Virus record (IMG/VR): IMGVR_UViG_2698536484_000025
Origin: a virus
Taxonomy: Duplodnaviria; Heunggongvirae; Uroviricota; Caudoviricetes
Reading direction: 5' to 3' (one strand)
DNA: 37,558 bases
The position numbers were made by a program, and so were the translations under genes. The notes below the pieces were generated by a model that worked only from the letters and a program-made list of their open reading frames with translations, made no database searches and was not told the DNA's origin. Shown here piece after piece: positions 2,066-30,036 of the stretch (the stretch's first letter is position 1; every line of letters starts with the position of its first letter).

Positions 2066-2082
2066 AAATTTATTAGAGCAAT
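2066..2082 (-). promoter_or_regulatory. C1 repressor operator (17/17 match to consensus ATTGCTCTAATAAATTT on minus strand)
   Basis: Plus strand aaatttattagagcaat at 2066-2082, overlapping the dmt stop codon. Consensus is from memory of P1 C1 operators. Confidence 0.6.
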
Positions 2083-5341: not shown

Positions 5342-5358
5342 ATATTTATTAGAGCAAT
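5342..5358 (-). promoter_or_regulatory. C1 operator-like site (16/17) in divergent intergenic region
   Basis: Plus strand atatttattagagcaat at 5342-5358, between the minus-strand uhr/hrdC/dmt operon and the plus-strand genes starting at 5440. Confidence 0.5.
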
Positions 5359-20469: not shown

Positions 20470-20510
20470 CTTTGCACTTAGAAAACGAAATTTATTAGAG
20501 CAAATTTTTC
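20470..20510 (-). promoter_or_regulatory. kilA-repL promoter with overlapping C1 operator (Op53-type, 16/17)
   Basis: Plus strand aaatttattagagcaaa at 20488-20504. On the minus strand the operator overlaps a -35-like TTGCTC with a TAAGTG -10-like 17 bp downstream. Confidence 0.7.
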
Positions 20511-20582: not shown

Positions 20583-21620
20583 TTAACCTATTGCTACTGG
20601 TTTTAACAAACCAGCATCAAGTAGCTTGCGAGTTAACCACTGCTGGCCTTTACCCGTTAATTGGGGCGTCAGCCGTATCTGGTAGCCATTTTCATCATCC
20701 AGCACCACTTCTTTCACCGTGAAATACCCGGCGTTAATGTACTGCTGGCGCGGTACGTTTTTGCGCGCACCAAAAGCCATGAGAATGCCGTTCTGGCGCA
20801 ACCATGAGAAAAGGGCGTTTTGCTTAAGTCCAACGATCTTTGCAAAGTTCCCGATCAGGATTCCATTAGCCACTGATACCCGGTCGGCAAAATCGACTTT
20901 AGGGGCTGCGGCCACCAGCTGTTGTTCCAGCTGCATTTTCTGTTCTGCCAACTCGGCAGCCAGGCGTAGAGCTTCTGGTAATGTTTGGGGGATCGATGGG
21001 GCAGGGGAGTTTGCCTGCTGCAATTCTTCCAGTTTGTCGATCAGCGAACGGCGGACAGCTTTTGATTCGCGCGCGGCGACTCGCATGGCTTGTTTGAAAG
21101 TCATGGTTATGACAAGCATTGATGTTTTGTTCATTTTTTCCACTACACTTTTTGTGTAGTGCTCACCATCAAGCTCATCGAGTATTTTTTCTATGAATTT
21201 GTTGTTCCGAACCTCTGGTTCCCCACATAACTTACGCGCTTCATTGACCATCTTTAACAGTGTCAGGCTGTCGATTGTGTCTCCGGTGTTGGGGATGATA
21301 TTCACGGCTGGTGCTGGCGTAGCTGACGTAACAGGTGCTGTTTTTTCAACATTCAAATTATTACCGGTCATTCTATGTGCCTCCTTTCTCATTTCTGCTG
21401 CCACTGTTGCGTAACGTAGACGTCCTTGTTCAATCAAATAATCCCTGATCTCGGCTATCAGTAGCCTGTTGATCACAGCCTTATCTGTTCGGGTATAAAA
21501 ACGTCTGGTTATCATGAAATAGTTAGCAATTGCGCCGGGGATCTCCCGTGTCGGCATACAGGCAGTATGCAAGGCGATCGCTTCGGCTATTTCATTACGG
21601 GTGACGAGAGGTGTTTTCAT
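20583..21620 (-). CDS. ant1: antirepressor Ant (Ant1, with in-frame internal Ant2 start expected)
   Basis: 345 aa; C-terminal domain paralogous to KilA C-terminus; start ATG overlaps icd stop (ATGA). Confidence 0.85.
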   Translation of the reverse strand: MKTPLVTRNEIAEAIALHTACMPTREIPGAIANYFMITRRFYTRTDKAVINRLLIAEIRDYLIEQGRLRYATVAAEMRKEAHRMTGNNLNVEKTAPVTSATPAPAVNIIPNTGDTIDSLTLLKMVNEARKLCGEPEVRNNKFIEKILDELDGEHYTKSVVEKMNKTSMLVITMTFKQAMRVAARESKAVRRSLIDKLEELQQANSPAPSIPQTLPEALRLAAELAEQKMQLEQQLVAAAPKVDFADRVSVANGILIGNFAKIVGLKQNALFSWLRQNGILMAFGARKNVPRQQYINAGYFTVKEVVLDDENGYQIRLTPQLTGKGQQWLTRKLLDAGLLKPVAIG

Positions 21621-21838
21621 AAACCCCCCTGAACGTCGGCAGAGAAGGGGAGGCTCCAGTAACTAAGTGAATTGCGCGAGTTAGTTGAAAAACGGGCAGT
21701 AAAAATGCAGGGGCCATCAGGCAATTGAGAGCGTGCTTCGTCTTCTGTTGCTGCGATAACGAAGTGATAGTGGTGTTTTTGGCAGGAGTAAAAGCGCCAG
21801 ATAAATTCAGGATGAGTAGGGGTAGGGATAGTAGCCAC
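21617..21838 (-). CDS. icd: Icd-like small protein (interference with cell division), translationally coupled to ant
   Basis: 73 aa; GTG start at 21838 with AAGGAGG 9 nt upstream; stop overlaps ant start. Confidence 0.7.
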   Translation of the reverse strand: MATIPTPTHPEFIWRFYSCQKHHYHFVIAATEDEARSQLPDGPCIFTARFSTNSRNSLSYWSLPFSADVQGGL

Positions 21839-21895
21839 AATGGCAGCCTCCTTTTGCTAATTTAAGGAGCTACCGCGTGAGGTTCCAATCTCAAT

Positions 21896-21976
21896 GGCGG
21901 TAGCACTGACTGGGTTGGAACTACCGGCGCAAAAGGGAACCGGCCTGCCTTTCGGCAGCCCAGCCAGCACTACCAT
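21896..21976 (-). ncRNA. c4: c4 antisense RNA (immI regulator); boundaries approximate
   Basis: Minus-strand segment between direct repeats a1b1 (plus 22053-22080) and a2b2 (plus 21850-21890). It carries CCCUUUUGC and GUUCCAACC, complementary to the GCAAAAGG and GAUUGGAAC elements, and folds into stems (CUGCC-GAAA-GGCAG; CCGG...CCGG). Confidence 0.5.
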
Positions 21977-22022
21977 TGATCTCGGAGCTATGTGCTACGT
22001 ATGGTTGTGCGATGGCATGACA

Positions 22023-22046
22023 CAAAAAAAGACGCTTTTGGCGTCT
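22023..22046 (-). terminator. hairpin plus U7 on the minus strand inside the immI leader (attenuator or terminator-like)
   Basis: Minus strand GACGCC-AAAA-GCGTC followed by TTTTTTT; lies between the a1b1 repeat and c4. Confidence 0.4.
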
Positions 22047-22173
22047 ATGTCGCCTTTTGCATTATCCGGGGTTCCAATCCCGGCATCCGTTTTACTAAGA
22101 TGCCTGTTTAGGATAAACCGAAAATGCATTAGCACGCAAGCAAGTTAATGTAGCATATGAAGCTAAAAAAATA

Positions 22174-22190
22174 AAATAATTAGAGCAACT
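22174..22190 (-). promoter_or_regulatory. C1 operator-like site (14/17), candidate immI operator (Op51-type)
   Basis: Plus strand aaaataattagagcaac; core ATTAGAGCAA conserved. Lies between immI and the divergent AT-rich island. Confidence 0.5.
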
Positions 22191-22335
22191 TGCAACCATG
22201 TAAATTATTTCTCTGGTAACTAAAATGTATGAGTTTAATTGATATGGGTCAAAGATTTTGACCATTGCATGGTGAAACTTTATGCTACAAAATGTTATTT
22301 TAAGGCGTTTTATCTGTGGCAGGAGATAGTTAATC

Positions 22336-22686
22336 ATGTCATCTGAACATGTTCGTAAAGGTGTAACAAATGCGAAATTCAATGAAGAGCAATCTAATAT
22401 TCTCTTTATTGAAATAGGAATTCTGTCAATACTGATAGGTTTAATGTCTAAATCATGGTGGGCCTTTGGCGGTTCTTTTCTTGGACTGATTTTTAGTTTA
22501 AGAATAAAATTTCTAGCAATACCATTGATGATTGTATTTAGCTTAGTATGGGGAGCTATTGGCTATAGTATTGGTACTTTGTTTGAATCAACAGCAGCAA
22601 GTATTGTTTTGGGGGTAATTGCTTTCCTGAGTGGTTTGGGTACTCATTTTGCTGCCGTGCAATGGGCAAATGATATTGCAGAATAA
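22336..22686 (+). CDS. small multi-pass membrane protein (AT-rich island gene 1)
   Basis: 116 aa; ATG 22336 with AGGAGA 9 nt upstream; three to four hydrophobic helices (ILFIEIGILSILIGLM; FLGLIFSLRIKFLAIPLMIVFSLVWGAIGYSIG; IVLGVIAFLSGLG). Confidence 0.75.
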   Translation: MSSEHVRKGVTNAKFNEEQSNILFIEIGILSILIGLMSKSWWAFGGSFLGLIFSLRIKFLAIPLMIVFSLVWGAIGYSIGTLFESTAASIVLGVIAFLSGLGTHFAAVQWANDIAE

Positions 22687-22708
22687 TTACAGATAAGAAG
22701 CGAAAAGA

Positions 22709-23185
22709 ATGAATATGAGATGGTTTTTATTATTTGTATCGTTAGTTTCAGCAGGAACATTTGCAAAAATTGATCCTCTACAATGGAATGTAATTGAAGA
22801 GAGAGGGGGGAGAGAATATACAATCCATAATCATAATGGTGATAAGATAAGTTTTTTATGTGATATGGGATTCATGTATGGTTCACCAGATAGTGCAGGT
22901 AGTTTAGGCTTGTTGCTAAGTTCGTCGAATAATAAAAAAGAGTATAATGCTGACAAGAATAAAATAGTATTAACTATAGATGGTGATCAATATCCTTTTA
23001 GCAATCTTGGATCAATGGTTGGAGATTCTTGGTGGTATGCCTTTTGGCAAGATGCAGCAGATTCAAATGCTAATATGATTGATGCTTATGTTGATAATGA
23101 AAAAATTGCTACATTCCCTCTTTCTGGGCTAAGTAAGTTGTATCAACAAGCCAAAATGGATGGATGTATTAAACGAGGCAAATGA
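22709..23185 (+). CDS. secreted or periplasmic protein with signal peptide (AT-rich island gene 2)
   Basis: 158 aa; N-terminus MNMRWFLLFVSLVSAGTFA-KIDP resembles a Sec signal peptide with an AxA-like cleavage site; Trp/Asp-rich C-terminal part. Confidence 0.75.
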   Translation: MNMRWFLLFVSLVSAGTFAKIDPLQWNVIEERGGREYTIHNHNGDKISFLCDMGFMYGSPDSAGSLGLLLSSSNNKKEYNADKNKIVLTIDGDQYPFSNLGSMVGDSWWYAFWQDAADSNANMIDAYVDNEKIATFPLSGLSKLYQQAKMDGCIKRGK

Positions 23186-23259
23186 TCTTTCTGTGTTAAA
23201 GATTAACGCAATCAATAAAACATTGGTTGCGTAATATTCTATTATATAAATGGAATAAT

Positions 23260-24294
23260 ATGACAAAAATTACTAATTCTAATGAGTTGAAGTTGCTGTA
23301 TAAACAGTCAGTGCTCATTCCATCATACAAAGATCACGTAGCGATCTTGCAAAAACAATTAGGAATAGAAAAACATTCTTTTCAAAATATGCCAAGATTG
23401 AATAGACAAGCTGTAATTAGTAACTCTCTTCGAAAACAATTGGCTAGTATACCGAACTTGGCTGGAATAGGCAGCAAGTATCGTGAACATATCGCGATTT
23501 TACAGAAACAGACTCAGGCTCTTTTCCCTCATGATGCAAATAGATATATTCAAATGCTAAGGAAACAGGCCGAAATAGCTATGCCATTACGAAAACAGCT
23601 TGAGGTGCTTAATAAGCAAGCTGGTTTAAATAACATGCAAGCGATACTTAAAGAATTACAACAAAGTGCAAGTTATAAAATAGATGTAAGCCAAGACATA
23701 AAGAAAGTACTAGATCACTATGCTAGAACAAGAAATGCTTCATTACATCAAATAATAGAGCAGGGGATTTCATCTATTGCGCAGGCTTATGCTGAAGGTG
23801 CTACTGAAACATCACACACCAAAAGTAATGTTCAAAATAAAGGATTAAATAAACCTAGCTCAAAGTTTGTTGATTCATTTAAAGAGCTTCCTTATCCACT
23901 GCAATGGTTACTAATGGTTATATTTTCTCAAGTTGTGTTTGGTGCTTTTATTGATTACGGAAAAGAGAAAACCTTGCTGGGAATACACAAGGCAGAATCA
24001 TATTTTATATCTCTGTTTGAGGATAAACCAATATCAAAACAACAATTAATTAAAGAAAACAAAGAAATTAGTTGGGAAGATCTCAATGGTTTTCGTTTTA
24101 TAACTGGTGAGAACGTAAGATTACACGTCAGTCCTTCTATAAATAGTGAGGTGATTGAATGCATTGGCAAAAATACTATAGTGGCTGTTTTAGATAAAAA
24201 AGATCGCCAATGGCTTTTCGTGCAGGTTAAATCAGGGGACGAGTTTATTACTGGATGGATTACACGAACATACACAAAGCCTCTTAAGGCTTGA
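23260..24294 (+). CDS. membrane protein: N-terminal K/Q-rich repeats, one TM helix, C-terminal SH3b-like domain (AT-rich island gene 3)
   Basis: ATG 23260 (track ORF starts at TTG 23227). Repeats HVAILQKQ / EHIAILQKQ / LRKQAEIAMPLRKQLEVLNKQ; TM LPYPLQWLLMVIFSQVVFGAFIDYG; C-terminus FRFITGENVRLHVSPSINSEVIECIGKNTIVAVLDKKDRQWLFVQVKSGDEFITGWITRTY is SH3b-like. Confidence 0.75.
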   Translation: MTKITNSNELKLLYKQSVLIPSYKDHVAILQKQLGIEKHSFQNMPRLNRQAVISNSLRKQLASIPNLAGIGSKYREHIAILQKQTQALFPHDANRYIQMLRKQAEIAMPLRKQLEVLNKQAGLNNMQAILKELQQSASYKIDVSQDIKKVLDHYARTRNASLHQIIEQGISSIAQAYAEGATETSHTKSNVQNKGLNKPSSKFVDSFKELPYPLQWLLMVIFSQVVFGAFIDYGKEKTLLGIHKAESYFISLFEDKPISKQQLIKENKEISWEDLNGFRFITGENVRLHVSPSINSEVIECIGKNTIVAVLDKKDRQWLFVQVKSGDEFITGWITRTYTKPLKA

Positions 24295-24392
24295 ATTTTA
24301 TCACCGTATCTTGGGGCTGGGTGTTGATGACGATGTGCTACTTGAAGTACTTGGGTTTTTTAACGCAGCATCTGAAATGTGTAGACTGACCG

Positions 24393-24416
24393 GTAACAAA
24401 TGACAACTCGTAGAAT
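24393..24416 (+). promoter_or_regulatory. candidate late promoter: GTAACAAATGAC box, 6 nt, then TAGAAT hexamer, overlapping an 11-bp perfect palindrome
   Basis: Same architecture as 12102 and 17566. Palindrome ctcgtagaatc (24406-24416) / gattctacgag (24430-24440) overlaps the -10-like hexamer. Confidence 0.4.
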
Positions 24417-24423
24417 CGGGTAA

Positions 24424-25014
<591 letters not shown>

Positions 25015-26613: not shown

Positions 26614-29600
26614 ATGGAAAGAAAAAACGCCAACATTGACGATGTTATAAGGACAGTTGAAACCGCCAGCGCAAAAGAGCTGGAAGAGCTTGCAGGTATC
26701 CGGGAAGCTGTTGAAGATTTGAAAGGGGGACACGTTGCTACAGTTGATCCTGTCTCTCGCAGTGTGTCGGCATTAAATCGCACAATCGAAAATTCCCGGC
26801 CTGACTTTGTGGCCAAAGCGCCATCCGTAGACCCTATTGTTGACGCAATGAAACGGCTTAATTTAGGGGACGTTTCTCGTGTAGTTCAGGAAGATGTTGC
26901 TCAACAGGAACAGCGGGCCAAATCAACCACACCAAAGGGTAAAAAACGACGCAGGAAGGTTATACCAGAGGATGTAAAGGCACAACGGACCGAAGCAGCC
27001 GAACACGCTCGCGAAATGTTCGGTCAAAAAGTCGGTGCGCAAAAAAGCCAAAACCAACGCGATGCGCGTGGTCGTTTTATTGGAAAGTCAGGGAGTAAGG
27101 CCGCAGCGGAAGATGCACGTGCTGAACGAGCAGAAAAGGCCAGGCGCAAAGAGGATGATGAGCGTCTAAATGCTGAATCAGGTTTATTAAAAAAACTGTC
27201 AAAAGTAGCTGAAGGCATAGGTAACCCTTCAGAGACTCGTGCCGTCGATGCGTTAGGTTATGCCGTTGCTGGCCCATTGTGGGCAGCAGGGAAGGAGCTT
27301 GGCGGGATATCAAAAGAAGTTGGTGGATCGCTTAATGGTGCCAGAAAGTCTATTGCCGATGTGATTCGTGGCAATGACGATAACAGCCGTAGAAAAGGTT
27401 TTTTTAGGCGTAAATCGCAAAATAGTGCCGATGTCGTTCAGGTTAACACCCAAAAACGGACGGTTCAGGAACTTCAGGAGCAGACCAGCGAAATTAAAGA
27501 GGGCAATGACAAGATTCTCAGCGCCCTTGATCAGATAGCCAAAAACACCGGGAAAAAGAAGGGCGGCTTGCTGTCTAAACTATTTAGCCTGTTAGGGAAG
27601 GGGGCCGGTGGCGTCGCGTCGTTGTTAATGGGGCGTGGCATGCTGAAAAAAGCTGGAGCACTCGCTTTTGGCGCTCTGGGGGCAAAGAGACTCGTAGGAA
27701 TGCTACGCGGTGGGGGCAAGAAGACTCTCGCCCATGAAGGCGGAGATTTGGCTGCCCGGGCAGCAGGTAAACTTGGATTAAAGGCAGTTGGTAAAGGGGC
27801 GTTACGCGCAATTCCCCTAGTCGGCACAGTGGCTGGAGGTATTTATGATGCGGTAACCGGTTGGAATGATACAGAAGCGCAACGTCGAGCGTTTGGGCTT
27901 AAATCAGGACAAGATCCATCATTCCAGCAAAAAGCCGCTTATACGTTAGCCAATGTTCTTGATTTGGGGGGACTGGTATCTGGTATTAGCAGTGCTATTG
28001 GTGATGTTCTCAAATCACTTGGATTTGAGGATATCGGCAATATGTTGCAATCATTTTCGACGGAAAGTATTGCCCAGGCCATTGATAGCGGGGTTACCAA
28101 CTTAGAAACATATATTTCTAACCTTGGCGACACCATTTCTACCAAGTTCGATGATTACACAGCAAAGATTGGTGATGCTGTTTCAGCATGGTTTAGCGAT
28201 ACATCTAATAAGTTGCTTGAAAAGCTGGATGCCATCAAAGACTTCTTTACTGTCGATAACCTGAAACAGGTTTTCAGTGATGCAATTGATAGTGCAATTG
28301 ACTTCATTAAGAACCCAGGGAAACACATTAAAGAGGCGGCTGGTAATATTTGGGATGGGGTTAAAAATTTACCCGGTAAAGCATTAGATGCAGCGGTTGA
28401 TGCCGTTAAAAATACCCCTGCGGCAATGATTGTATCAAAAATACCCAATCCGATCGGCGAGGCTAATGCAAAAGAAATCACTCCAGAGTTAAAAGCTCCG
28501 GTTAATAGCCACCAGGAGACATCTGATTCTAAAACTGAATCCGATGCTAAACAGACTAATATTGCTACCCGCGTGATAAATGCGGCACTGGACACGGCGA
28601 AAGATAGCAATAAAACAGTTAAAGAAACTGCCAATCAGATTATCAATGCAAATGCCGTAGAAACGGGCAATAGCGCGGTGCGGAAAATTGATTCAGCTAT
28701 TGGACAAAATAGCTCGTCATCATCGTCGCGTAATACCACCGGCACTGGGAATGACATTCAGAAAGCTGCTGATACCTACAATAATGGCAACTTAGATGTA
28801 AAAGTCGGAAGCCTTGGCGCTGAAGGTAAGGCAAATCTCGATAAGTTAGCTCCGTATTTTGCTGAACTAGAGAATAAATATGGTCTTCCTGAAGGCACTC
28901 TTTACGCGATTGCTGCAACTGAATCAGGAGGGGATCCTAACGCAAAGTCTCCGCTTACAAGATCACCAGATGGAAAGTTAAGTGGTGGCGCACTCGGGAT
29001 GTTCCAGTTCACGAGTATTGCTCGTAAAGAGACAGGGATATCGGAACCGGATGCATTTGATCCTGTGAAATCGGCAGAAGCTGCGGCTCTTCTCATGAGC
29101 AAGTATCTGAAGCAAGCCAATGGAGACTTAAACGAGGCCATCACTGCATATAACGCTGGGTTTGGCACTATTAATAGGTGGAAAAAAGGCACAGGTGACT
29201 TATCGAAAGAAAACCGTGAGTACGCGATCAAGGTCAATACTCATCGTGCTCGCTATTTAGGTGGTGAAATCTATACACCAGGGGCAGGAGCACAGGGGGG
29301 GGCGCAATATGGAGTGAGGGGACCACTGCCTGATAACGCCGTTATCGATCAGTCTACTGGCCTGGCGTTTACCCCTGGTGATAGCCCGTTTGAGAAGGGC
29401 GGTCTGGTAGACAAAATCGGTAATGCTGTTGGCGTTAACGATCTGGTCAACAAATTCATGAATGGTCGGGGGATGCGTCGAGAAGTCGTCCAGGGAACCC
29501 TCGAAGAACGTGCACGAGGGAAGGGGACCGCAACAGCAGCTGGCAATGTGTATGTTGATACTCCGATGCCAGTTGAAGAGGCGCGTCCGGTGGCCAGCAA

Positions 29601-30036
29601 CTCAAGTTACTTTGACCAGCTCGGCGCACAAATGGGGATTGATGGACTGTATGACAAACTCATTAATGCCCGGGGAATGCGCTCAAATAATTCTCCTCAA
29701 CCAGCCTCCACGTTCCAGGTGACGACTGCCGCCAACGATTTGCAGCAACCAACCGGTCGTATGCAGATAGACGGACAGGTTATTAGTGACCTTGGCGGCT
29801 CCGGTGCCAAGCCGACAATGCAGTTGGCTGATAATACCGTTTCACTTGATGGTGAAACGAAGCGGCTGTTTGCGCAGATGACCTCATTGCTTGCCAGGAT
29901 TGAAGAGCACACTAAAGACTCGGCGAAAGGCCAGGGAACTGTCGTAAAGGTCAGCACGCCTCAACCGGGCGTTATGCGCACGGTGCCACTGTCAATTGAT
30001 GATCCGTTGATGAATGACTACGCGAGAGTTGATTGA
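26614..30036 (+). CDS. sit: large injection/structural protein with internal lytic transglycosylase (SLT) domain
   Basis: 1140 aa; SLT motifs ATESGGDPNAKSP...GALGMFQF...AYNAG; long coiled-coil and Gly-rich regions; size matches P1 Sit. Confidence 0.85.
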   Translation: MERKNANIDDVIRTVETASAKELEELAGIREAVEDLKGGHVATVDPVSRSVSALNRTIENSRPDFVAKAPSVDPIVDAMKRLNLGDVSRVVQEDVAQQEQRAKSTTPKGKKRRRKVIPEDVKAQRTEAAEHAREMFGQKVGAQKSQNQRDARGRFIGKSGSKAAAEDARAERAEKARRKEDDERLNAESGLLKKLSKVAEGIGNPSETRAVDALGYAVAGPLWAAGKELGGISKEVGGSLNGARKSIADVIRGNDDNSRRKGFFRRKSQNSADVVQVNTQKRTVQELQEQTSEIKEGNDKILSALDQIAKNTGKKKGGLLSKLFSLLGKGAGGVASLLMGRGMLKKAGALAFGALGAKRLVGMLRGGGKKTLAHEGGDLAARAAGKLGLKAVGKGALRAIPLVGTVAGGIYDAVTGWNDTEAQRRAFGLKSGQDPSFQQKAAYTLANVLDLGGLVSGISSAIGDVLKSLGFEDIGNMLQSFSTESIAQAIDSGVTNLETYISNLGDTISTKFDDYTAKIGDAVSAWFSDTSNKLLEKLDAIKDFFTVDNLKQVFSDAIDSAIDFIKNPGKHIKEAAGNIWDGVKNLPGKALDAAVDAVKNTPAAMIVSKIPNPIGEANAKEITPELKAPVNSHQETSDSKTESDAKQTNIATRVINAALDTAKDSNKTVKETANQIINANAVETGNSAVRKIDSAIGQNSSSSSSRNTTGTGNDIQKAADTYNNGNLDVKVGSLGAEGKANLDKLAPYFAELENKYGLPEGTLYAIAATESGGDPNAKSPLTRSPDGKLSGGALGMFQFTSIARKETGISEPDAFDPVKSAEAAALLMSKYLKQANGDLNEAITAYNAGFGTINRWKKGTGDLSKENREYAIKVNTHRARYLGGEIYTPGAGAQGGAQYGVRGPLPDNAVIDQSTGLAFTPGDSPFEKGGLVDKIGNAVGVNDLVNKFMNGRGMRREVVQGTLEERARGKGTATAAGNVYVDTPMPVEEARPVASNSSYFDQLGAQMGIDGLYDKLINARGMRSNNSPQPASTFQVTTAANDLQQPTGRMQIDGQVISDLGGSGAKPTMQLADNTVSLDGETKRLFAQMTSLLARIEEHTKDSAKGQGTVVKVSTPQPGVMRTVPLSIDDPLMNDYARVD

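What the first reader, a model, noticed from the sequence alone, without database searches (positions are those of the whole stretch)
22709..23185. Island gene 2: exported 158-aa protein
A clear N-terminal signal peptide (MNMRWFLLFVSLVSAGTFA) is followed by a Trp/Asp-rich domain (GDSWWYAFWQDAADSNANMIDAYVDNEK). Exported phage proteins at the immunity locus are typical of superinfection-exclusion functions, but this sequence is not one I recognise.
Basis: inference. Interest (0 to 1): 0.5.

Follow-up and report, generated by a model that had tools for sequence, protein, structure and literature searches.

The report
Exported YfjT-family protein, P1 sim slot
The gene is real and encodes a small secreted protein of a catalogued but never-studied family (YfjT/YkfB), sitting where phage P1 keeps its superinfection-exclusion genes, so blocking rival phages is a reasonable but untested guess.

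Summary
The ORF at 22709..23185 (+) is confirmed. It encodes 158 aa with a typical Sec signal peptide (predicted cut TFA|K after residue 19) and is under purifying selection (dN/dS about 0.2).

The window is a P1-like phage-plasmid. The gene lies in a 2.2-kb low-GC island (34% against 47% GC). The island fills the slot between the C1 operator/c4 immunity RNA and the late promoter of pmgC. In P1 this slot holds simA-simB-simC, the superimmunity genes.

YfjT-family genes are a more common occupant of the slot in PLSDB than simC: 185 plasmid records against 141. They occur as very divergent alleles (27-38% identity). They sit next to other envelope proteins:
- a SimA-like exported protein,
- a 116-aa multi-pass membrane protein,
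- an SH3 membrane protein.

The best reading is a periplasmic part of a prophage-expressed exclusion cassette. The location and context are shown here; the function is inferred. It is a new member of a known, uncharacterised family, of moderate interest.

The parts
22173..22189 (-). C1 operator-like site (GTTGCTCTAATTATTTT, 3 mismatches to the P1 consensus). It lies at the position of Oc4 and marks the left edge of the variable slot.
   Evidence: 5 matches in the window against 0.18 expected. Homology to phages RCS47 and JL22 stops at 22188. P1 map.
22190..22335 (.). Left end of the low-GC accessory island (whole island 22190..24394, 34% GC), upstream of the first island gene. The island occupies the P1 'sim' slot between the immI operator and the late promoter of pmgC.
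   Evidence: GC content; homology breakpoints at 22188 and 24395; P1 simABC at the same place and orientation; sim region described as a low-GC variable hotspot.
22258..22286 (+). Sigma-70 promoter-like site (TTGACC-17-TATGCT), about 50 nt upstream of the first island gene. Consensus match only.
   Evidence: The region as a whole has no excess of promoter-like sites.
22336..22686 (+). Island gene 1: a 116-aa protein with 3-4 predicted membrane spans (phrog_15014) and an AGGAG ribosome-binding site. It is probably co-transcribed with the finding; the gap is 22 nt.
   Evidence: Homologues at 58-72% identity sit beside YfjT-like genes in L022 and L021, but also stand alone elsewhere.
22709..22765 (+). 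Predicted Sec signal peptide of the finding (residues 1-19, cut TFA|KIDPLQW).
22766..23185 (+). Mature YfjT/YkfB-family domain (residues 20-158) plus the stop codon. The model has nine beta strands, a long Trp-rich helix (residues 103-118), a C-terminal helix and the conserved pair C51/C153.
23206..23232 (+). Terminator-like hairpin (11-bp stem) with a T-rich tail, directly after the finding. It suggests that genes 1 and 2 form one transcription unit.
   Evidence: 7 terminator-like sites found against 1.6 expected.
23260..24294 (+). Island gene 3: a 344-aa protein (ATG at 23260, as annotated in RefSeq). It has an N-terminal repeat/coiled-coil region, one membrane span and a C-terminal bacterial SH3 domain. 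It is an optional member of the cassette.
   Evidence: SH3_3, E 1e-5; phrog_7086. Homologues at 62-67% identity follow other YfjT alleles in L013 and L014. It is replaced by a DUF4760 gene in L008.

Best explanation
The ORF is a real, expressed-type gene for a small protein that the Sec pathway exports to the periplasm and signal peptidase I cleaves after residue 19. The mature domain of about 139 aa is probably stabilised by a disulfide.

It belongs to the YfjT/YkfB family. It is the second gene of a bicistronic unit, after a 116-aa multi-pass membrane protein. The unit lies in the accessory 'sim' slot of a P1-like phage-plasmid and is transcribed divergently from the immI immunity operon.

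The most likely role is as the periplasmic component of a prophage-encoded envelope cassette that protects the lysogen from superinfection. It would interfere with the step after adsorption and before the incoming DNA reaches the cytoplasm, which is the step that P1 Sim is known to block. It may act on the incoming tail's ejection proteins, such as the Sit tape-measure/transglycosylase, together with its membrane partner.

Shown here: the gene, its export signals, its family, its slot, its cassette partners and its allelic diversity.
Inferred: the exclusion function and the target.
For: Real gene:
- The ORF and its sequence are confirmed.
- dN/dS is 0.22.
- The full-length match to phrog_3429 has E 6e-71.

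Export:
- The signal-peptide features and the conserved cysteine pair are described.
- The N-terminus has low pLDDT.

Family:
- PF27224 'YfjT' is precomputed for the 98%-identical cluster representative and for all relatives found.
- RefSeq names a 100%-identical copy 'YfjT/YkfB family phage-associated protein'.
- An HMM built around the query scores K-12 YkfB at 110 bits.

Slot:
- P1 simA-simB-simC lie between Oc4 and LPsit/pmgC in the same orientation.
- The C1 operator-like site is at 22173..22189, C4 RNA at 21893..21980 and pmgC at 24448.
- The sim region is a recognised low-GC variable hotspot.
- P1 Sim causes superinfection exclusion (Kliem and Dreiseikelmann 1989, as cited).
- From prior knowledge: Sim is a processed, exported protein that acts after adsorption.

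Prevalence and diversity:
- YfjT-family genes occur in 185 plasmid records, almost all non-mobilizable replicons of about 90-100 kb. Alleles are 100, 93, about 37, about 29 and about 27% identical to the query. SimC occurs in 141 records.
- Each sampled allele (one locus for each diverged class) lies in the same slot.

Cassette logic:
- The neighbours are always envelope proteins: a SimA-like exported protein, the 116-aa membrane protein, or the SH3 membrane protein.
- All three of SimA, the 116-aa protein and YfjT occur together in a Salmonella P1-like element (L022).
- SimA-like proteins carry a conserved 33-48-aa stretch about 50% identical to Sit residues 936-979. This links the slot to the phage's injection machinery.

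Non-essential: sim-slot genes are dispensable for P1 lytic growth.
Against: - No experiment exists on any YfjT/YkfB member. A ykfB deletion had no motility phenotype, and that was the only test found.
- The family also sits in CP4-6/CP4-57-type integrative islands, beside antirestriction, RadC and toxin-antitoxin genes. It is also found in an Enterobacter chromosome and in lytic jumbo Serratia phages. Its role need not concern P1-type phages.
- The 116-aa partner also occurs without any YfjT gene.
- Position next to an immunity region is circumstantial evidence.
- The promoter and terminator are consensus matches only.
Confidence: 0.45

Rival explanations
1. It is a lysogenic-conversion envelope factor that benefits the host for reasons unrelated to phage entry. 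Examples would be an orphan periplasmic immunity or protective protein against colicins, type VI effectors or cell-wall-damaging agents, or a modulator of envelope stress.
For: - The family is carried by non-phage islands and by a chromosome locus about 1.4 kb from an Hcp (type VI) gene.
- Small periplasmic proteins with a disulfide are typical immunity proteins (established knowledge).
- The highly divergent alleles would also fit an arms race with toxins.
Against: - No adjacent toxin or effector gene was seen in any of the contexts read.
- The Hcp gene in L010 is on the opposite strand and is not part of the pair's operon.
- In P1-like elements the gene is tied to one slot whose only characterised occupant is an exclusion gene.
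Confidence: 0.22
2. It is a periplasmic adaptor or binding protein with no activity of its own. It would serve whichever envelope protein is encoded upstream (the 116-aa membrane protein here, SimA-like proteins or the YafY/YfjS inner-membrane lipoproteins elsewhere), or it would bind a hydrophobic or glycan ligand in a beta-sheet-plus-helix cup.
For: - It recurs as the gene after an envelope protein: yafY-ykfB in K-12 with a 22-nt gap, SimA-YfjT, 116-aa-YfjT, and small multi-pass proteins upstream in L006, L010, L011 and L012.
- The conserved residues are mostly Trp, Asp and Gly.
Against: - The upstream partners are unrelated to one another in sequence, which argues against a specific protein-protein adaptor.
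- No ligand-binding family was matched.
- This reading is compatible with, rather than exclusive of, the exclusion model.
Confidence: 0.2
3. It is a phage-intrinsic function needed for the phage's own cycle, such as a lysis accessory, virion assembly, or help for its own DNA injection.
For: It lies directly upstream of the late tail-gene block (pmgC, tub, pmgB, sit) and in the same orientation.
Against: - P1 itself and 141 SimC-type plasmids lack it.
- The slot's content is swapped freely.
- The late promoter LPsit lies downstream of the island.
- sim-slot genes are non-essential in P1.
- A terminator-like hairpin separates it from downstream genes.
Confidence: 0.04

Closest known systems
E. 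coli K-12 YkfB (CP4-6) and YfjT (CP4-57); Pfam PF27224 'YfjT'; RefSeq 'YfjT/YkfB family phage-associated protein'
   Same: - It is the same family by profile: K-12 YkfB scores 110 bits against an HMM built around the query, and PF27224 is assigned to the 98%-identical representative.
- The size is the same (147-168 aa).
- Both have an N-terminal signal peptide, the conserved W26/C51/W109/C153 pattern, and a position just downstream of another envelope-protein gene on a mobile element.
   Different: - Pairwise identity to K-12 YkfB is only about 25%.
- The K-12 copies lie in integrase-type islands after an inner-membrane lipoprotein gene (yafY or yfjS). This one lies in a phage-plasmid's sim slot after a multi-pass membrane protein.
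- The family has no known function, so membership explains nothing mechanistically.
Phage P1 SimC (Sim), the superimmunity / superinfection-exclusion protein
   Same: - It occupies the identical genomic slot and orientation, between Oc4/c4 and LPsit/pmgC.
- Both lie in a low-GC accessory island.
- Both have an N-terminal signal peptide. SimC processing is from the literature, as prior knowledge.
- Both are dispensable for lytic growth.
   Different: - No detectable sequence similarity (blastp E > 1).
- 158 aa against 264 aa.
- Its exclusion activity is untested.
Phage T4 Spackle (periplasmic inhibitor of the incoming tail lysozyme) working alongside Imm (small membrane protein)
   Same: This is an analogy only. 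A small secreted protein and a small multi-pass membrane protein are encoded by a phage. P1-type tails carry a peptidoglycan-cleaving domain (the SLT domain in Sit, window 26614..30036) that such a protein could target.
   Different: - No Pfam match to any exclusion family.
- The model is beta-rich, whereas Spackle is helical (prior knowledge).
- No evidence of binding to Sit.
Bartonella IalB (PDB 3dtd), the best structural match
   Different: - Foldseek gives E 0.8 and TM 0.36-0.39.
- No profile match.
- IalB's own molecular function is unclear.
- This is not enough to claim a shared fold family.

Membership tests
YfjT/YkfB family (Pfam PF27224) | Significant match to the family profile | tested here: met
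   - PF27224 is precomputed for cluster representative P0001, which is 98% identical to the query over its full length, and for every relative found.
- RefSeq names a 100%-identical copy 'YfjT/YkfB family phage-associated protein'.
- An HMM built from alignment A1 scores K-12 YkfB at 110 bits, E 8e-36.
- Caveat: the local Pfam and NCBIfam copies lack the model, so the query could not be scored against it directly.
YfjT/YkfB family (Pfam PF27224) | A single domain of about 145-170 aa preceded by a signal peptide, with the conserved Cys pair and Trp motif | tested here: met
   Alignment of 14 members: C51 and W109 are invariant; W26, G33 and C153 are conserved in at least 90%; all full-length members have a hydrophobic N-terminus.
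P1 SimC superimmunity protein | Sequence homology to SimC | tested here: not met
   blastp of the query against P1 SimA, SimB and SimC gave no hit at E <= 1.
P1 SimC superimmunity protein | Location in the sim slot, divergent from c4 and co-directional with pmgC | tested here: met
P1 SimC superimmunity protein | Confers exclusion of P1 after adsorption | not testable with these tools
   This needs plating-efficiency, adsorption and DNA-entry assays.
Known anti-phage defence or exclusion proteins (PADLOC; Pfam families such as T4 Imm) | Profile match to any catalogued defence or exclusion component | tested here: not met
   PADLOC gave 0 families for all three island proteins. Pfam gave 0 for the query, and only scattered single hits at E 0.03-0.35 across 14 family members.
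Periplasmic lysozyme / lytic-transglycosylase inhibitors (Ivy, MliC/PliC, PliG) | Sequence or fold similarity | tested here: not met
   [not shown]
IalB-like fold (PDB 3dtd) | Clear structural superposition | tested here: inconclusive
   [not shown]
META/HslJ domain | Profile-profile similarity | tested here: not met
   A weak phmmer hit to a META-repeat protein, P0016, collapsed in hhalign to a probability of 1.2%.

The most novel reading that the evidence does not exclude
SimA-like exported proteins, the 116-aa multi-pass membrane protein, YfjT-type periplasmic proteins and, optionally, the SH3 membrane protein form a modular, undescribed envelope system. This system would be the ancestral and commonest occupant of the P1 sim slot.

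It would exclude superinfecting phages at the periplasmic stage. SimA would mimic a conserved C-terminal motif of the Sit tape-measure/transglycosylase, and YfjT-type proteins would supply a rapidly diversifying second component.

P1's classical simB-simC would then be a later insertion that truncated simA. The same logic would assign a function to the K-12 orphan pairs yafY-ykfB and yfjS-yfjT.
Probability: 0.3. Interest if true: 0.65.

Novelty: new member of a known kind. Interest (0 to 1): 0.42.

Why it matters
- If the cassette excludes phages, it would give a first function to a family that includes two long-standing orphan genes of E. coli K-12, ykfB and yfjT.
- It would explain what most P1-like phage-plasmids carry in place of the textbook sim genes.
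- It would point to the Sit tape-measure C-terminus as a target or mimicry site during DNA injection.
- P1-like phage-plasmids spread resistance genes in Enterobacteriaceae. What governs their mutual exclusion therefore affects which elements can co-infect and recombine.
- If the cassette does not exclude phages, the gene remains an ordinary hypothetical 'moron' (accessory prophage gene) found in about 1.5% of complete E. coli genomes.

Tried and rejected
Sequence searches that found nothing informative:
- The local Pfam, NCBIfam and PADLOC scans of the query gave no hits. A lenient Pfam scan of 14 family members gave only scattered single hits.
- The PDB sequence profile search found nothing at E <= 10.
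- An HMM search of all six-frame ORFs of the window found no paralogue.
- tblastn found no simA remnant in this island. The only match in the window is the Sit motif.

Fold searches:
- Foldseek against the PDB gave no hit at E <= 0.001.
- BFVD returned only family members, labelled 'putative adhesin' without any basis.
- The afdb50 library was unavailable.

Spurious hits from the exhaustive HMMER search:
- P0011 (839 aa) and P0022 are low-complexity or repeat artefacts.
- P0016 is a META-domain repeat protein that hhalign rejected at 1.2% probability.

Hypotheses tested and rejected:
- The 116-aa protein and the YfjT protein as an obligate two-gene module. This was rejected because homologues of the 116-aa protein stand alone in four other contexts, and because the small membrane proteins upstream of other YfjT genes are unrelated in sequence.
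- Positive selection between close alleles. This was not seen; dN/dS is 0.2-0.28, merely more relaxed than the 0.03-0.07 of the neighbours.

Other:
- The literature holds no functional data on yfjT or ykfB and no description of this cassette.

Full report
**1. The observation**

The ORF listing and the raw sequence confirm an ATG-initiated ORF at 22709..23185 (+) of 158 aa with exactly the sequence quoted. It is preceded by a purine-rich stretch. It starts 22 nt after the stop of a 116-aa ORF (22336..22686), which has a good AGGAG ribosome-binding site.

The N-terminus has one basic residue (R4) and a 14-residue hydrophobic core, with a maximum Kyte-Doolittle 11-mer mean of 2.29. T-F-A|K fits the -3/-1 rule after residue 19. 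No dedicated signal-peptide predictor was available, so the export call rests on four things:
- these N-terminal features;
- the equivalent N-termini of all full-length relatives;
- the low AlphaFold2 confidence of residues 1-20 against 86-97 for the rest;
- two conserved cysteines, C51 (invariant) and C153 (at least 90%).

It carries the most conserved motifs of the family: GDxxWYxFW, with W109 invariant, and DVYVDxKKI.

The gene is under purifying selection. dN/dS is 0.22 against a 93%-identical allele and 0.20-0.28 in two other allele pairs. The flanking SimA-like and 116-aa genes show 0.03-0.07.

The surrounding 2.2 kb has 34% GC against 47% for the window, so the 'island' is real.

**2. 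Where it is**

The window is a P1-like phage-plasmid (genus Punavirus). The flanks match P1, P7, D6, RCS47 and many E. coli plasmids of 90-100 kb.

To the left, on the minus strand, lies the immI operon:
- ant at 20583..21620;
- icd at 21617..21838;
- the C4 antisense RNA at 21893..21980 (Rfam RF01695, 76.7 bits);
- an isrK-like sRNA at 22025..22103;
- a C1-operator-like site at 22173..22189.

To the right are the late tail genes: pmgC (24448..25014), tub, pmgB and sit (26614..30036).

Homology to other P1-like genomes breaks at 22188 on the left and resumes at 24395 on the right. The right breakpoint is at the position of the late promoter LPsit in P1.

In the annotated P1 genome, the interval between Oc4 and LPsit holds simA, simB and simC. 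They are transcribed divergently from c4 and co-directionally with pmgC. The island therefore occupies the sim slot.

The literature lists sim among the low-GC, highly variable regions of P1-like phage-plasmids. The sim genes are dispensable for P1 lytic growth. sim is known to cause superinfection exclusion (Kliem and Dreiseikelmann 1989, cited). From prior knowledge, Sim is made as a precursor, processed and exported, and it acts after adsorption.

**3. What the protein is**

It has no similarity to SimA, SimB or SimC. It has no hit in the local Pfam, NCBIfam or PADLOC libraries. It matches phrog_3429, of unknown function, over its full length.

Several lines place it in the YfjT/YkfB family:
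- The large protein database shows a 98%-identical cluster of 245 member sequences carrying the precomputed Pfam label PF27224. The look-up of encoding contigs names this family 'YfjT'.
- The newest RefSeq annotation of a 100%-identical copy reads 'YfjT/YkfB family phage-associated protein'.
- I fetched K-12 ykfB. It scores 110 bits (E 8e-36) against an HMM built from the alignment around the query, with 25% pairwise identity.

An exhaustive HMMER scan of 1.84 billion representatives found only 21 clusters at E <= 0.001, and several of those are fragments or artefacts. The family is therefore small. Its members come from Enterobacterales, Aeromonas, Entomomonas and jumbo Serratia/Pectobacterium phages.

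No functional study of yfjT or ykfB exists in the searchable literature. The one test found was a ykfB deletion that had no motility phenotype, although the gene has a FliA promoter.

**4. Structure**

AlphaFold2 with a 13-sequence alignment gave mean pLDDT 86.7 and pTM 0.78. The model has nine beta strands, a long helix (residues 103-118) that carries the Trp motif, and a short C-terminal helix.

- Foldseek against the PDB gave nothing at E <= 0.001.
- The viral structure library returned only family members.
- A PDB sequence profile search found nothing.
- A weak hit to a META-domain protein was rejected by hhalign.

The fold gives no functional assignment.

**5. The cassette and its relatives**

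An identical island occurs in 27 plasmid records. The two-gene unit of the 116-aa gene and the finding occurs in 82 of 5,426 complete E. coli genomes, with 83 of 84 copies on plasmids.

By tblastn, YfjT-family genes occur in 185 PLSDB records. Almost all of these are non-mobilizable replicons of about 90-100 kb. The alleles fall in classes about 100, 93, 37, 29 and 27% identical to the query. SimC occurs in 141 records, and SimA (full length or remnant) in 267.

I read one locus of each diverged allele class, and each lies in the sim slot. The arrangements are:
- This window: 116-aa membrane protein, YfjT, SH3 membrane protein.
- L008: 116-aa protein, YfjT (93%), and a DUF4760 gene on the other strand.
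- Phage Ro157c2YLVW and pO111_2: full-length SimA (215 aa, exported), then YfjT (37%).
- L013 and L014: SimA (163-172 aa), YfjT (29%), then an SH3 protein 62-67% identical to the one here.
- A Salmonella P1-like element (L022): SimA-like (222 aa), a 116-aa homologue (72%), then YfjT (28%).
- Cronobacter phage JK004: a SimA-like protein (189 aa) followed by YfjT (38%) directly upstream of a pmgC homologue, though without the immI genes on the other side.

Further observations on the components:
- P1's annotated 52-aa simA is the N-terminal remnant of the full-length gene, 93% identical over 41 aa. P1's simB-simC therefore looks like a later insertion into a SimA-YfjT-type cassette.
- SimA is 96-99% conserved across E. 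coli cassettes whose YfjT alleles share only about 28% identity. The YfjT gene is thus the fast-changing or swapped component.
- The 116-aa protein is not an obligate partner. Homologues stand alone in four other contexts. One follows a DUF4431 protein whose C-terminal part is SimA-like.
- Outside P1-like elements the YfjT gene again follows an envelope-protein gene: yafY (inner-membrane lipoprotein) then ykfB in K-12 with a 22-nt gap, and unrelated small multi-pass proteins in an Enterobacter chromosome and in phage-like contigs.

**6. A clue about the slot's function**

Full-length SimA-like proteins carry a stretch of 33-48 residues near the C-terminus that is about 50% identical to Sit residues 936-979 (window 29419..29550; consensus MRxxVQGTLEERARGxGT..GN).
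- tblastn against the window gives E 1.6e-7 for the E. coli SimA.
- It gives E 1.3e-6 for the Salmonella SimA, which is only 59% identical to the E. coli one. The motif is therefore conserved.

Sit is the tape-measure/injection transglycosylase. An exported prophage protein that copies part of it suggests competition for a periplasmic or inner-membrane partner of the incoming tail. That fits an exclusion role for the slot as a whole.

The window's own cassette lacks simA, so this supports the finding only indirectly.

**7. Interpretation**

Shown here:
- It is a real gene with export signals.
- It belongs to the YfjT/YkfB family.
- It sits in the sim slot.
- Promoter-like and terminator-like sites bracket genes 1 and 2, at 22258..22286 and 23206..23232. 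These are consensus matches only.
- Its partners are envelope proteins, and its alleles are very diverse.

Inferred: the protein acts in the periplasm of the lysogen to block superinfection after adsorption. I give this about 0.45.

The main rivals are:
- a host-benefit envelope or immunity factor unrelated to phage entry (0.22);
- an adaptor or ligand-binding role that serves the upstream envelope protein (0.20), which could coexist with exclusion;
- a phage-intrinsic function (0.04), which is unlikely because P1 lacks the gene and the slot is freely swapped.

**8. Novelty and score**

The protein is already in the databases as a hypothetical protein, and its family has a Pfam and a RefSeq name. 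It is therefore a new member of a known but uncharacterised kind.

Three things were not found described in the searchable literature:
- the sim slot of most P1-like elements holds a SimA / 116-aa / YfjT / SH3 cassette rather than simBC;
- simA of P1 is a remnant of a longer gene;
- SimA carries a Sit-like motif.

These make a concrete, cheap experiment worthwhile. Interest is 0.42.

Noticed in passing
window 29419..29550 (Sit residues 936-979); L002:4302-4949, L015:2277-2924, L022:3234-3902: Full-length SimA-like exported proteins of P1-like elements carry a conserved stretch of 33-48 aa that is about 50% identical to this part of the Sit tape-measure/transglycosylase (MRxxVQGTLEERARGxGT..GN). 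A weaker second G(I/V)D..(N)xxGMR copy lies about 60 residues further on in Sit. This may be molecular mimicry of the injection machinery.
   Followed up: partly
L004:4560-4718 (P1 simA): P1's annotated 52-aa simA is the N-terminal remnant (93% identical over 41 aa) of a 163-222-aa gene that is intact in other P1-like elements. About 150 PLSDB plasmids carry only such a remnant. This implies that simB-simC were inserted into an older SimA-YfjT cassette.
   Followed up: partly
window 22025..22103 (-) and 21893..21980 (-): An isrK-like Hfq-binding sRNA (Rfam RF01394, 58.3 bits, above the gathering score) lies directly upstream of the C4 antisense RNA (RF01695, 76.7 bits) in the immI leader. This immI region resembles phage D6 (93%) and RCS47/JL22 (87-90%) rather than P1.
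   Followed up: no
window 23260..24294 (+): Island gene 3 has repeated HxAILQKQ / RKQ-type heptad-like motifs in its N-terminal 200 residues, one membrane span and a C-terminal bacterial SH3 domain. The last ~70 residues (from about EDLNGFRFITG), which hold the SH3 domain, differ at only 4-8 positions from homologues that are otherwise 52-67% identical (L013, L014). In some plasmids the gene is replaced by a DUF4760 gene on the other strand (L008).
   Followed up: partly
window 2066..2082, 5342..5358, 20488..20504 (all -): Three further near-perfect C1 repressor operator sites (0-1 mismatch to ATTGCTCTAATAAATTT) occur in the window, against 0.18 expected by chance.
   Followed up: no
window 26614..30036, compared with L001:10615-14334: Sit is 1140 aa in this window but 1239 aa in plasmid pSBF22b, whose sim-slot island is 100% identical. 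The island allele and the Sit allele are therefore not strictly linked.
   Followed up: no
L018:439-1242: A 267-aa DUF4431 protein from a metagenomic contig has a C-terminal domain homologous to SimA (28% over 117 aa; 49% to the L021 fragment). A homologue of the 116-aa membrane protein follows it 13 nt downstream. The SimA-116 association therefore extends beyond P1-like phages.
   Followed up: partly
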